Assembly: GCF_048403405.1 (NCBI RefSeq)
Contig: NZ_CP183129.1
DNA length: 64,000 nt
Direction: 5' to 3' (one strand)
DNA from: Escherichia coli
GTDB taxonomy: Bacteria; Pseudomonadota; Gammaproteobacteria; Enterobacterales; Enterobacteriaceae
Below are positions 3,001 to 6,000 of this stretch, one piece after another. The first letter of the stretch is position 1; each line of letters starts with the position of its first letter. A program made the position numbers.

Positions 3001-6000
3001 TATCATTAGCGTGATGCAGTCTCTGCAAAGGATCTTGTTGATAAAATTGGCAGAAACGTTGCCACAATGAAGGGAAACGAGGAGCAAAAAGTTCTGGGGC
3101 GCTAAAGAAATATTCAGAAAGTACGGCAAAACATTCAGCAGGATCACTGGCAGCATAAGCATCGATGCTCGCCGCATTCTCGCCAACCAACTCGATTTCT
3201 TCCTGAATGTTGTTCATTGCAGCATGAAGATCGTGTTCCCAGCCAGCAACCTCACGCAACGGAATAAAGGGAACTCCGCTGGCGCGATCGCCGTTACGGG
3301 TGTCCAGCTTATGAGCGACTTCATGAATAATCAGGTTAAAACCAGAAGCATCAAAAGAATCTTGTATATCCAACCAGTTCAAAACGATAGGCCCTTGCTG
3401 CCAGCTCTGACCTGACTGAACAATACGTTGGTTATGCACCAGACCGATATCGTCTTCCCATTCATCATCGACCACAAATGGCGCAGGATAAATTAAGACT
3501 TCATGAAAACCATCCAGCCATTCCAGTCCTAACTCCAGAACGGGCAGGCAAAATAGAAGTGCTATCCGGCAGCTTCTTAATGAATTCAGCTCAAAGCCCT
3601 GTAAAGGAACAAGCCGTTTTTGCTGTAAAAAACGTTCGGCAAGAGTGACTAATTTGCTTTGTTCCTGTTCCGTCAGACACGTTAAAAGGGGGATCGATAG
3701 TGCTTCCTGCCAGGGAAGGGCAGTTTGATGTGCTGATTCTTGTACTTTCCAGGGCCACTTAATCATCGTTTTGCTCGCAAACTCGTCACTTGAACAAAAT
3801 TGCACGGACAGGGACTGTTAAAATGCCAAATTTCCTGGCATCATGGCAACCATCTGAACGGAGAGATGCCGGAGCGGCTGAACGGACCGGTCTCGAAAAC
3901 CGGAGTAGGGGCAACTCTACCGGGGGTTCAAATCCCCCTCTCTCCGCCACTTTATCAATGACTTATCTCCCGACTTCCCGCCTTGCTTTTCCTAAACAGA
4001 ACAATCGTAGAATATTCTTGAAGGGTTAGATCGTCACTGTTTTCTGTTCGATACTGTGACATTCAGCACTTGATTCGCTATGGGTCTGACAGGAAGGTTT
4101 CGAGCGAAAATCTACAGTTATTCAGTCGTTTTCTTATCGGTCACCATTATTCTTTTAGACATTGATCCTATGAAACTGCCGCAAAGTTGCTGGCGGGAAC
4201 TGAAGTTGCGTAGAGAAGGGGTCAATAATTGAGCCAAAAAAGGAACGCGGCCGTCAGATTAAAGCCGCGGGACAAAGTCCATAATTTCCAAGAGTTGTTG
4301 AATTTCCCAGCTTTTTTGAAAGCCTTTGTATCATACTAACAAGTAAAAAAGGTTTAAATACCAAAATTAACCTATATTTCTGGTTAGCTTTACCATGACA
4401 GATGACTTGCTCCTGGAGACATTGGCGCAGCCAGTCTGTATTGGTGAGTTGTGTATTTATTGTTCGCCGTTTTCTCAGTTTTTTTCTACAGACATAATAA
4501 AAAAGACACGTCTCAAGCATGAGCGTGTCTGAGTTTGTCTTATTTATTTGTCTTGGTAAATTATTGTCGTTACTACCAGGCACTGTTCTGTTAAATAATT
4601 GAAGTCAGCGCAAAAAAATCAATGAGACATCATCTCCTCGACCACTTCTTTGCTACTCAACTGATATGGATAATACGTTGGCCAGTTTTCCATTTCATTC
4701 AATAAAGACTGTTGGGTATCATTACCCATAAAAATGTGAAAATGAGATGATTTTCGTGGTGCAATTATATGATCGCTAAATTGAATATATTTAGGGGCTT
4801 TGCTTTCAGGATCTTTACATTCGAATAAGTAACGAACGCCTTTCTTGCCTGATTTATAGGTGAGTATTTTGTATCCATCGTAATCATATTTACAGGATGT
4901 TGTTTCATTATGTCTATGGAATTCAACAATGCCGTCCTCAATGCCAATCATCTCGATATCTGTCACATAACCTTTGCGATAATAATCTTTAATTTCAGCA
5001 AATGTTTTGGTTTTATCTGCATCCGCTTTCTTCTGAAAGACGGGGTCAAGTTTGCCACTTTGCAGTAAAGGATAAACGGATTGCCAGACTCCATCCCAGT
5101 CACTGAGCGTTCGGTTTTGTACATTGGTATCATCAAAAACACCATTAGCAGCTTTTTGTTCGACCTCTGTTAAGGGTTTGCCGTGTGAGTGATGACCATG
5201 CGAAAAGGCAGGAGCGCTAACAATAAAGACGCCTAAAGCAACAGCCAGTTTATGAAGACGAATCGCCAAAACAGTTTCCTCCAGAGTTAATGTACATGAT
5301 GTATAATGTTATATTGTAACATATGGCGAAATGCAATAACTCTTAGGAAACGAGAGCATAGTTTTCTCAGGTGTATTTTCCTATCTTATTGAAATAAAAT
5401 AAATTATTCTGGTGATGAAAGGTTGATGACAAACGAAACATAACTTGATGCGATCTGTGTGGGCCGGATAGGGCGCTCGCGCCGCATCCGGCCGGGATAA
5501 CGCGTACTTTGTTGGCAATATGAAGTTATAGAGATAATTTGTTGTGAACCTGCTTGCGTAACTGGTTGAAAAGGGAAAGCAACTTCTTATACCGTAAGGC
5601 TAAAAGCAGTACCGCCAGCCCAGCGTAGATGAGTGGCTGCGGTGAAATAATCTTCACTGACCACAAATAATGTATTGGGGCCAGGATCGCGACAAGATAG
5701 ACGAAGTTATGCAACTGTTGCCAGTGTTTGCCGAGTTTTCGCTGCATCGCCTGGGTTGAAGTGAACGCTAACGCAAGCAAAATTACCCAGCTGATAATAC
5801 CTAACGTTAAATAAGGCCGGGTAATTAACTCCTTACCTAATAACGCCAGATTATTCACGCCCAGCTCCAGCAATGCGTAACTGGTTAAATGCAGTGTCGC
5901 CCAGGCAAAGCACCATAAGCCTAACAGGCGGCGAGTGCGTATCAATAACGGCTGTTTTGCGTAGCGTGCCAGAGGTGTGATTAACAAGGTCGCCAGCAAA

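What the first reader, a model, noticed from the sequence alone, without database searches (positions are those of the whole stretch)
3950..4618. serU-zinT interval is AT-rich and lacks the expected cytochrome b561 gene
From memory, K-12 has a 176-aa cytochrome b561 homologue (yodB) between zinT and serU. Here the 669-bp interval has no ORF with membrane-protein character in any minus-strand frame. It carries two minus-strand rho-independent terminators (AGACACG/CGTGTCT at about 4504..4530; CGCGGC/GCCGCG plus U-run at about 4235..4270), leaving roughly 230 bp that could be an unannotated short transcript or a deletion scar. The only listed ORF (4254..4583, minus) is low-complexity and crosses a terminator hairpin.
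Basis: partly seen in the sequence, partly recalled or inferred. Interest (0 to 1): 0.4.

Follow-up and report, generated by a model that had tools for sequence, protein, structure and literature searches.

The report
yodB-less serU–zinT spacer, common allele
The missing cytochrome gene is real, but this is simply the version of the serU–zinT spacer carried by about 42% of E. coli genomes; it resembles the ancestral layout rather than a deletion scar, and it holds two transcription terminators and phage-related leftovers.

Summary
The window matches UTI89, S88 and APEC O1 at 100% identity. Its 669-bp serU–zinT interval (3950-4618) is 39% G+C, has no trace of yodB, and carries both minus-strand hairpins at the stated positions.

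K-12 does have yodB here. However, the difference is a replacement, not a deletion. Window 4397-4618 (222 bp) stands in place of 995 unrelated K-12 bases.

Across 5,426 complete E. coli genomes, 3,114 carry the yodB segment and 2,304 carry the 222-bp segment. The 222-bp segment aligns colinearly with E. albertii (64% identity), which also lacks yodB. No other enterobacterial zinT locus examined has yodB. YodB's closest relatives are cargo genes in lambdoid prophages. The short form is therefore probably the older layout, and yodB an accessory gain.

- **Hairpin 1** (4504-4530) is the zinT intrinsic terminator.
- **Hairpin 2** (4246-4269, U-run 4236-4241) coincides with an "orphan" RNA 3' end mapped by Term-seq in K-12.
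- **Rest of the interval** is shared with serU-integrating phages (3888-4227) or resembles a lambdoid prophage 3'UTR/terminator module (4236-4396).
- **The 109-aa ORF** is not a gene.

The finding is ordinary. An independent small RNA ending at 4236 remains possible but is not shown.

The parts
3860..3949 (+). serU, tRNA-Ser(CGA). It is convergent with zinT and is a known integration site for islands and phages.
   Evidence: ARAGORN; Rfam tRNA at 57 bits; RefSeq annotation of UTI89 and K-12.
3888..4227 (.). 340-bp stretch made of the last 62 nt of serU plus 278 bp of downstream flank. Temperate phages mEp332, ev099 and PhiR70_1 carry it at about 97% identity. It represents the attB/attP homology of serU-integrating lambdoid phages.
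   Evidence: In the phages it lies between the tail-fibre assembly gene and an AraC-like gene, transposase remnants and the integrase. The SerU-LTIIb prophage record shows a 62-nt partial tRNA-Ser next to the same flank.
3950..4095 (.). serU-proximal block conserved across the genus Escherichia.
   Evidence: Identity is 97.9-100% within E. coli, 93% in Escherichia sp. MOD1-EC7003 and 84.5% in E. albertii. No stable fold and no terminator on the + strand.
4236..4280 (-). Hairpin 2. It consists of a mini-hairpin (4270-4280), a 7-bp G+C stem (4263-4269 with 4246-4252), then UUCC and U6 (4241-4236). It acts as an intrinsic terminator, with the RNA 3' end at 4236.
   Evidence: Fold. In K-12 Term-seq, an 'orphan' 3' end at 2,043,181(+) was seen in LB at OD 2.0 with identical sequence (PMC7815308, supplementary file 1). 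The phage copy shows a compensatory C-G to T-A change in the stem.
4236..4396 (.). Block colinear with a lambdoid-prophage module. In that phage the module is the 3'UTR and terminator of a 41-aa minus-strand ORF, lying between Q/tRNAs and holin S. Window 4241-4346 is missing from E. albertii.
   Evidence: 68% identity (112 of 165), z = 26.8 against shuffles. Phage context. The module occurs in prophages of 308 E. coli genomes. The chromosomal block is single copy and present in 5417 of 5426 genomes. Only 1 of 139 positions differs between the window and K-12 in 4235-4373, against 15 of 162 in the flanks.
4330..4358 (-). Promoter-like site, TTTAAA-17-TATGAT. It is unproven.
   Evidence: 9 of 12 matches. 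The scan found 4 sites in the region, and shuffles give 4.0 on average. The spacing is not conserved in the phage homologue.
4396..4397 (.). Breakpoint between the two E. coli alleles. It coincides with the end of the phage-module homology.
   Evidence: blastn against K-12; alignments.
4397..4618 (.). 222-bp segment specific to the short, yodB-less allele. It replaces 995 bp of K-12.
   Evidence: Found in 2304 of 5426 complete genomes at 93-100% identity. 64% identical to E. albertii (140 of 219), z = 24.
4494..4530 (-). Hairpin 1 plus its U-run: the intrinsic terminator of zinT. It starts 88 nt after the zinT stop codon.
   Evidence: Free energy -17.9 kcal/mol, z = -3.2. Substitutions among E. 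coli sub-alleles fall in the bulge and loop only. E. albertii keeps the stem through an A-U to G-C double change.
4254..4583 (-). 109-aa ORF. It is not a gene.
   Evidence: Synonymous to nonsynonymous codon changes are 2-4 to 8-11 between sub-alleles. The ORF is frameshifted in L087, truncated in L089, and absent from E. albertii and K-12. It has no NCBIfam match.
4619..5269 (-). zinT (metal-binding protein ZinT).
   Evidence: ORF; RefSeq annotation; 97.2% identity to K-12 zinT.

Best explanation
The interval is an ordinary non-coding spacer between two convergent genes, serU and zinT. It is present here in the 'short' form of a species-wide two-allele polymorphism. The short form lacks yodB because it never had it in this lineage. 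It is colinear with the E. albertii spacer, whereas the K-12 form has 995 unrelated bases, including yodB, in place of 222.

Functionally the spacer holds two elements:
1. The zinT intrinsic terminator (hairpin 1).
2. About 260 nt further on, a second intrinsic terminator (hairpin 2). It ends whatever minus-strand transcription gets past the first terminator or starts between the two, before that transcription can run antisense into serU.

The remainder is DNA left by, or shared with, the temperate phages that use serU as their attachment site. This includes the serU-proximal 278 bp, which such phages carry, and a 160-bp lambdoid 3'UTR/terminator module.

Shown here: the indel structure, the allele frequencies, the colinearity with the outgroup, the hairpins, the K-12 RNA 3' end and the phage similarities.

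Inferred: the polarity (short form older, yodB gained, probably as phage cargo) and the backstop role of hairpin 2 in this strain.
For: Indel structure:
- Window 3800-4396 and zinT are each 97.2% identical to K-12.
- Window 4397-4618 replaces K-12 L002 6027-7021.
- The only similarity between the two segments is the hairpin, 25 of 30 positions. Global alignment is not significant.

Allele frequencies: 3114 genomes carry the yodB segment and 2304 carry the 222-bp segment, out of 5426.

Outgroups:
- E. albertii has no yodB. Its spacer aligns through hairpin 1 and across the 4396/4397 breakpoint at 64% identity, z = 24.
- None of the other zinT loci returned from Enterobacterales has a YodB homologue within 6 kb. 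The only YodB hits among the 80 loci were two E. coli-like MAG contigs.

Origin of yodB:
- The nearest non-E. coli YodB relatives are only 72-77% identical.
- They sit as cargo genes between lysis genes and terminase in lambdoid prophages. A 61%-identical relative on E. coli-named contigs sits in similar contexts.

Terminators:
- Folds.
- Compensatory changes in hairpin 1 (E. albertii) and hairpin 2 (phage copy).
- Term-seq 3' end at the hairpin-2 U-run in K-12.

Phage links.

Recombination context: the serU/HPI neighbourhood is described in the literature as a recombination hotspot (PMC5521745). yodB presence or absence also distinguishes sister ST410 clones that differ in HPI (PMC10786849).
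Against: - Polarity rests on one E. albertii genome. A second Escherichia species genome is uninformative because most of its spacer is deleted. E. fergusonii and the other cryptic clades were not recovered.
- The K-12 allele keeps a hairpin very like hairpin 1, at nearly the same distance from zinT (about 93 nt against 86 nt). This hints that its zinT-proximal part is an old, strongly diverged homologue rather than wholly foreign DNA, which would allow both alleles to be ancient.
- There are no expression data for this strain.
- The Term-seq lists searched show no zinT 3' end. zinT is expected to be repressed when zinc is replete (my own knowledge, not tested here).
- Hairpin 2 alone does not fold significantly better than shuffles (z = -1.7).
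Confidence: 0.8

Rival explanations
1. Deletion scar. The B2 lineage lost yodB by deletion from a K-12-like ancestor, and the interval is what was left.
For: K-12 and 57% of complete genomes have yodB here. Both flanks are 97% identical between K-12 and the window.
Against: - A deletion would leave only K-12 sequence. Instead 222 bp unrelated to the K-12 995 bp are present.
- tblastn finds no yodB remnant.
- The 222 bp are orthologous to E. albertii, which also lacks yodB.
- The short allele is internally diverse, 93-100% identity. This is not what a recent deletion would produce.
Confidence: 0.05
2. An unannotated small RNA gene. An independent transcript of about 90 nt starts near 4322 from the TTTAAA-17-TATGAT site and ends at hairpin 2 (4236) on the minus strand. 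It would be conserved in essentially all E. coli.
For: - An 'orphan' Term-seq 3' end in K-12 lies exactly at the hairpin-2 U-run, in stationary phase only, with 2241 reads.
- The block 4235-4373 differs at 1 of 139 positions between K-12 and the window, against 15 of 162 in its flanks (Fisher p = 6e-4).
- The block is present in 5417 of 5426 genomes at 95% identity or more.
- A promoter-like site lies at a suitable distance.
Against: - The promoter match is 9 of 12, and such sites occur at chance frequency in shuffles.
- In K-12 the 3' end is equally explained as the end of the yodB mRNA, with a 283-nt 3'UTR.
- There is no Rfam match.
- The block is homologous to a phage 3'UTR/terminator module in which the promoter-like spacing is not kept.
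- The predicted fold of 4220-4335 is no better than shuffles, z = -0.95.
- No TSS was found in the supplements I could search.
Confidence: 0.15
3. Both alleles are ancient. The yodB cassette together with the hairpin-2 module is the remnant of a lambdoid prophage that integrated at serU before E. coli diversified. The short allele is an equally old derivative, so neither form is simply 'ancestral'.
For: - The hairpin-2 module sits directly 3' of yodB in K-12, just as it sits 3' of a small cargo-like ORF in the phage. Homology starts at that ORF's stop codon, which corresponds to the allele breakpoint.
- YodB relatives are prophage cargo.
- The K-12 allele retains a hairpin-1-like stem at the same distance from zinT.
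Against: - E. albertii shares the right-hand part of the module and the 222-bp segment but has no yodB.
- The yodB flanks match nothing in phage collections apart from one record that includes E. coli host flank.
- No zinT-linked yodB exists outside E. coli.
Confidence: 0.2
4. The 109-aa ORF (4254-4583, -) or the 45-aa ORF (4395-4532, +) encodes a protein.
For: Both ORFs are open in the window and in five of the seven other short-allele strains sampled.
Against: - Codon changes between sub-alleles are mostly nonsynonymous: 8-11 against 2-4 for the 109-aa ORF, and 5-7 against 2-4 for the 45-aa ORF.
- The ORFs are frameshifted or truncated in two strains, and absent from E. albertii and K-12.
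- They run through the zinT terminator.
- There is no NCBIfam match, and RefSeq does not annotate them.
Confidence: 0.02

Closest known systems
E. coli K-12 zinT-yodB-serU locus (b1973-b1975)
   Same: The flanking genes, their order and their orientation are the same. The serU-proximal 447 bp (window 3950-4396) are 96.2% identical, including hairpin 2. zinT is 97.2% identical.
   Different: K-12 has 995 bp in place of window 4397-4618. They comprise a 342-bp spacer, yodB and 122 bp. K-12's zinT-proximal hairpin has the same stem but no U-run, so it is not a canonical terminator there.
Rho-independent (intrinsic) terminators
   Same: Both hairpins have a G+C-rich stem followed by a U-run on the strand of the upstream gene. 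Hairpin 2 has a mapped RNA 3' end in K-12.
   Different: Hairpin 2 has a 10-nt loop and a 4-nt spacer (UUCC) before the U-run. In this strain it has no annotated gene directly upstream.
tRNA-gene attachment sites of temperate phages and genomic islands (serU island/PAI-serU; phage SerU-LTIIb; phages mEp332 and ev099)
   Same: Islands and prophages abut the 3' end of serU in related genomes (L003, L084, L085, KU052038). Phage genomes carry the 3' 62 nt of serU.
   Different: The phage-host identity runs 278 bp beyond the tRNA into the host flank, further than a tRNA-only core. No element is integrated at serU in this window.
Lambdoid prophage cargo genes ('morons') with their own terminators
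   Same: YodB relatives sit as opposite-strand single genes next to the lysis cassette in prophages. Window 4236-4396 resembles the 3'UTR and terminator of such a cassette.
   Different: In the window only the 3' module is present, with no cargo gene. No other prophage genes lie nearby.

Membership tests
Cytochrome b561 YodB (Pfam PF01292), as a gene or pseudogene in the interval | Translated similarity to YodB in any frame | tested here: not met
   tblastn of K-12 YodB against the window: best E = 0.28, located elsewhere. Inside the interval there is only a 12-aa match at E = 4.3.
Deletion scar of yodB | The remaining sequence is a subset of the yodB-bearing allele | tested here: not met
   222 bp have no significant similarity to the 995 bp they replace.
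Deletion scar of yodB | Outgroups carry yodB at this site | tested here: not met
   E. albertii and the other non-E. coli zinT loci returned lack it. Only one close outgroup was informative.
Intrinsic terminator (hairpin 1, zinT) | Stable G+C-rich stem-loop directly followed by a U-run, downstream of a gene on the same strand | tested here: met
   Free energy -17.9 kcal/mol, z = -3.2, followed by U6AUUAU, 88 nt after the zinT stop.
Intrinsic terminator (hairpin 1, zinT) | Stem maintained by compensatory change in relatives | tested here: met
   E. albertii shows an A-U to G-C double change. E. coli sub-alleles vary only in the bulge and loop. This rests on few sequences.
Intrinsic terminator (hairpin 1, zinT) | RNA 3' end mapped at the U-run | not testable with these tools
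   No data exist for a short-allele strain. K-12 Term-seq lists no zinT 3' end, and K-12 has a different sequence here.
Intrinsic terminator (hairpin 2) | Stem-loop plus U-run | tested here: met
   7-bp G+C stem, then UUCC and U6. The fold alone is not significant (z = -1.7).
Intrinsic terminator (hairpin 2) | RNA 3' end mapped at the U-run | tested here: met
   In K-12, which is identical in the stem, loop and U-run: 3' end at 2,043,181(+), equal to window 4236(-), in LB at OD 2.0 (PMC7815308 supplementary file 1). Not measured in this strain.
Small regulatory RNA gene | Own promoter or primary 5' end | tested here: inconclusive
   One 9-of-12 promoter-like site, found at chance frequency. 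No TSS data could be retrieved.
Small regulatory RNA gene | Match to a described RNA family | tested here: not met
   An Rfam E-value search of 3500-5600 returned only the tRNA and sub-threshold chance hits.
tRNA-linked phage/island attachment site | Foreign elements abut the tRNA 3' end in relatives, and phage genomes carry the tRNA 3' segment | tested here: met
   L003, L084 and L085 have islands at the serU 3' end. KU052038 is a prophage at serU. mEp332 and ev099 carry 62 nt of serU plus 278 bp of flank.
Protein-coding gene (109-aa ORF) | Frame conserved and substitutions biased toward synonymous | tested here: not met

The most novel reading that the evidence does not exclude
The hairpin-2 block (window about 4236-4373) may be a domesticated fragment of a lambdoid prophage cassette. 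It is retained in essentially every E. coli and is unusually invariant. It could produce its own stationary-phase small RNA, the 'orphan' Term-seq 3' end of K-12, independently of yodB or zinT.
Probability: 0.15. Interest if true: 0.4.

Novelty: already known. Interest (0 to 1): 0.14.

Why it matters
It matters little beyond housekeeping.

- **yodB is accessory.** This K-12 y-gene of unknown function is an accessory gene with phage-cargo relatives, present in about 57% of complete E. coli genomes. It is not a core gene lost by uropathogenic strains. That is useful for anyone interpreting pangenome or marker-gene results, such as yodB used as a clone marker in ST410.
- **K-12 is a poor reference here.** This is one more case, at a tRNA integration hotspot, where "gene missing relative to K-12" is the older state.
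- **One loose end could be of wider interest.** An unassigned stationary-phase RNA 3' end maps to a very conserved, phage-like block.

Tried and rejected
Searches that led nowhere:
- **TSS or transcript evidence.** Thomason 2015 is not held. The supplements of Ettwiller 2016, Yan 2018, Conway 2014, Kim 2012 and the UTI89 sRNA paper (Khandige 2015) contain nothing for these coordinates or genes.
- **Full-text searches.** Queries for 'yodB-serU'-type intergenic names found nothing.
- **Donor of the K-12 995 bp.** There is no nucleotide match to its flanks in 80 enterobacterial zinT loci, in YodB-homologue loci (coding region only, 72-73%), or in the phage collection.
- **serU terminator.** No convincing structure exists on the + strand in the first 130 nt after serU (z = +1.7).

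Ideas rejected:
- **Crossover inside zinT.** The K-12-versus-window differences are spread along zinT, with only a small cluster at 553-570. There is no sign of a foreign 3' end.
- **Hairpin-2 block as a repeated or mobile element.** It is single copy.
- **A 12-nt match of hairpin 1 to the phage module.** It is not colinear and was treated as chance.
- **Sub-threshold Rfam hits.** sX4, Plastid-psbI-rps4 and rliB are all sub-threshold; sX4 and Plastid-psbI-rps4 overlap the tRNA and rliB lies in zinT. All were dismissed.
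Full report
**What is in the window**

The region carries these genes:
- asnT at 2793-2868 (-)
- mtfA at 2969-3805 (-)
- serU, tRNA-Ser(CGA), at 3860-3949 (+)
- zinT at 4619-5269 (-)
- msrQ and msrP after zinT

The 669-bp interval 3950-4618 is 100% identical to UTI89, S88, APEC O1, IHE3034, NU14 and the type strain ATCC 11775. From my own knowledge these are phylogroup B2 strains. RefSeq annotates nothing in this interval in UTI89. The interval is 39.3% G+C, against 49.3% for the whole window.

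K-12 MG1655 has yodB (b1974, 176 aa) between zinT and serU, and its interval is 1442 bp. tblastn of K-12 YodB against the whole window finds nothing (best E = 0.28, located elsewhere).

- **Hairpin 1.** On the minus strand, AGACACG (4530-4524) pairs with CGTGTCT (4510-4504). An inner 4-bp helix and a tetraloop follow, then UUUUUUAUUAU. Free energy is -17.9 kcal/mol and z = -3.2. It begins 88 nt after the zinT stop codon.
- **Hairpin 2.** It has a 7-bp G+C stem (4263-4269 with 4246-4252) and a 10-nt loop, then UUCC and U6 (4241-4236). On its own it is not significantly more stable than shuffles (z = -1.7).

**It is a replacement, not a deletion**

- blastn against K-12 shows window 3800-4396 and zinT each at 97.2% identity.
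- Window 4397-4618 (222 bp) lies where K-12 has 995 bp (L002 6027-7021). Those 995 bp comprise a 342-bp spacer, yodB, and 122 bp.
- The two segments share only a 30-nt similarity at the hairpin.
- Global alignments of the two segments are no better than shuffles.

**It is a species-wide two-allele polymorphism**

- Among 5,426 complete E. coli genomes, 3,114 carry the 995-bp yodB segment. These include K-12, ATCC 8739 and O157:H7.
- 2,304 genomes carry the 222-bp segment, at 93-100% identity to the window.
- Together these account for 5,418 genomes.
- Published work on ST410 already uses yodB presence or absence, inversely linked to the HPI gene fyuA, to tell sister clones apart (PMC10786849).
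- The serU/HPI neighbourhood is described in the literature as a recombination hotspot and a "bastion of polymorphism" (PMC5521745).

**Polarity**

I scanned one genome per GTDB species with ZinT. This returned 80 loci.
- Only two of them encode YodB within 6 kb of zinT. Both are E. coli-like contigs in MAGs.
- E. albertii has no yodB. Its 567-bp zinT–serU spacer is colinear with the window. It aligns through hairpin 1 and across the 4396/4397 breakpoint. Identity to the 222-bp segment is 64% (140 of 219; z = 24), whereas K-12 shows none.
- The E. albertii hairpin keeps its stem through an A-U to G-C double change. Within E. coli the sub-alleles differ only in the bulge and loop.
- Escherichia sp. 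MOD1-EC7003 has a third state. zinT is followed after 9 bp by the serU-proximal 146-bp block, and an island is inserted in serU.

The short allele therefore looks like the older layout.

**Where yodB may come from**

- The nearest YodB relatives outside E. coli are only 72-77% identical.
- Those relatives lie in lambdoid prophages, as single opposite-strand genes between the lysis cassette and the terminase. This is the classic position for phage cargo genes.
- A 61%-identical relative on E. coli-named contigs sits next to phage lysozyme/Rz genes or holin remnants.
- The Salmonella relative (65%) is chromosomal.
- Only the coding region is similar at the nucleotide level (72-73%). I did not find the donor of the K-12 flanks.

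**The rest of the interval is phage-related**

- *The serU-proximal flank.* Phages mEp332, ev099 and PhiR70_1 carry 340 bp at about 97% identity to window 3888-4227. This is the last 62 nt of serU plus 278 bp of flank. In the phages it lies on the integrase side of the tail genes. The prophage record SerU-LTIIb shows the matching 62-nt partial tRNA next to this flank and yodB.
- *The hairpin-2 block.* Window 4236-4396 is colinear and 68% identical (112 of 165; z = 26.8) with a module of phage vB_EcoS-683R6. That module lies between Q/tRNAs and holin S. It occurs in prophages of 308 E. coli genomes.
- *What the module is in the phage.* It is the 3'UTR and terminator of a 41-aa minus-strand ORF. 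Homology begins at that ORF's stop codon, which corresponds to the K-12/short-allele breakpoint.
- *Structural support.* The phage copy of hairpin 2 differs by a compensatory C-G to T-A change.
- *Copy number.* The chromosomal block is single copy and present in 5,417 of 5,426 genomes.

**Experimental support for hairpin 2**

In the Term-seq data of Adams et al. 2021 (PMC7815308, supplementary file 1, sheet LB 2.0), K-12 has an "orphan" 3' end at 2,043,181(+).
- It has 2,241 reads.
- Its sequence is ...CCCGCGGCTTTAATCTGACGGCCGCGTTCCTTTTTT.
- By the coordinate conversion, this position equals window 4236 on the minus strand, the last U of the run.
- It was not listed for LB at OD 0.4 or for M63 medium.
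- In K-12 the site lies 283 nt past the yodB stop, so it may simply be the end of the yodB mRNA.

**The small-RNA idea**

*In favour:*
- Between K-12 and the window, 4235-4373 differs at 1 of 139 positions. Its immediate flanks differ at 15 of 162 (Fisher p = 6e-4).
- A TTTAAA-17-TATGAT site at 4358-4330 would give an RNA of about 90 nt.

*Against:*
- That site has 9 of 12 matches, and shuffled sequence yields as many such sites as the real one.
- The predicted fold is unremarkable (z = -0.95).
- Rfam has no match.
- No TSS data could be found.

I give this reading about 15%.

**The ORFs**

- *Frame conservation.* The 109-aa ORF stays open in five of seven other short-allele strains. It is frameshifted in one and truncated in another. 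It is absent from E. albertii and K-12.
- *Substitution pattern.* Codon changes are mostly nonsynonymous, 8-11 against 2-4. The 45-aa plus-strand ORF behaves the same way.
- *Family match.* Neither ORF matches NCBIfam.

**Verdict**

The absence of yodB is real, but it is a common and already visible accessory-gene polymorphism at a known integration and recombination hotspot. The interval is not a deletion scar. Its two hairpins are the zinT terminator and a second terminator with experimental support in K-12.

Noticed in passing
window 3888-4227; L100 2441-2778; L101 2439-2778: Temperate phages mEp332, ev099 and PhiR70_1 share the 3' 62 nt of serU and also 278 bp of the host's downstream flank, at about 97% identity. 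This is well beyond a tRNA-only att core. The phage copy is about equally distant from the K-12 and B2 versions. It is unclear whether the phage captured host DNA or the host flank is an old phage arm.
   Followed up: partly
window 3950-4396 versus 4397-4618: Among short-allele strains, divergence from the window jumps at 4396/4397. It is 0.2-1.1% in the 447 bp next to serU and 4.5-6.8% in the 222 bp next to zinT. The window's own sub-allele (99% identity or more) is the minority, at 343 of 2304 genomes. This could reflect constraint, gene conversion with phage copies, or a recurrent recombination junction. It is unexplained.
   Followed up: partly
L002 (K-12) 6119-6146: K-12's zinT-proximal hairpin has the same stem as hairpin 1 (ACAGACACG...CGTGTCTGT) but is followed by AUAUUAAU rather than a U-run. 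zinT transcription may therefore read through into yodB in yodB-bearing strains.
   Followed up: no
window about 1-2631: The left end of the window is the edge of the yersiniabactin island (HPI). By identity to UTI89, it carries the start of ybtS and an integrase pseudogene with an internal stop, next to asnT. Two of the sampled short-allele strains (L086, L087) also have ybtS and an integrase next to asnT; a third (L083) shows an integrase at the same position. The ST410 paper links fyuA presence with yodB absence.
   Followed up: partly
window 5462-5527: There is a REP-type palindromic element in the zinT-msrQ spacer, with a sub-threshold Rfam hit to naRNA4 (33 bits). In strain SK1144 an IS1397-family element is inserted in this spacer. 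The spacer is also the most divergent piece of the neighbourhood, at 90-94% identity.
   Followed up: no
window about 5296-5322: A near-palindrome, AATGTTATATTGTAACAT, lies just upstream of zinT. From my own knowledge it resembles a Zur box, which would fit zinc-repressed zinT. This was not tested.
   Followed up: no
L003 (Escherichia sp. MOD1-EC7003) 6649-6830: This genome has a third spacer architecture. zinT is followed after 9 bp by the serU-proximal 146-bp block, with no zinT terminator hairpin at all. An island interrupts serU, and ARAGORN finds no tRNA in the locus.
   Followed up: partly
L102 (phage vB_EcoS-683R6) 1925-2046: The phage module has two tandem minus-strand terminator units. 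Each is preceded by the same mini-hairpin, GGACUUUGUCC. E. coli keeps only one unit.
   Followed up: no
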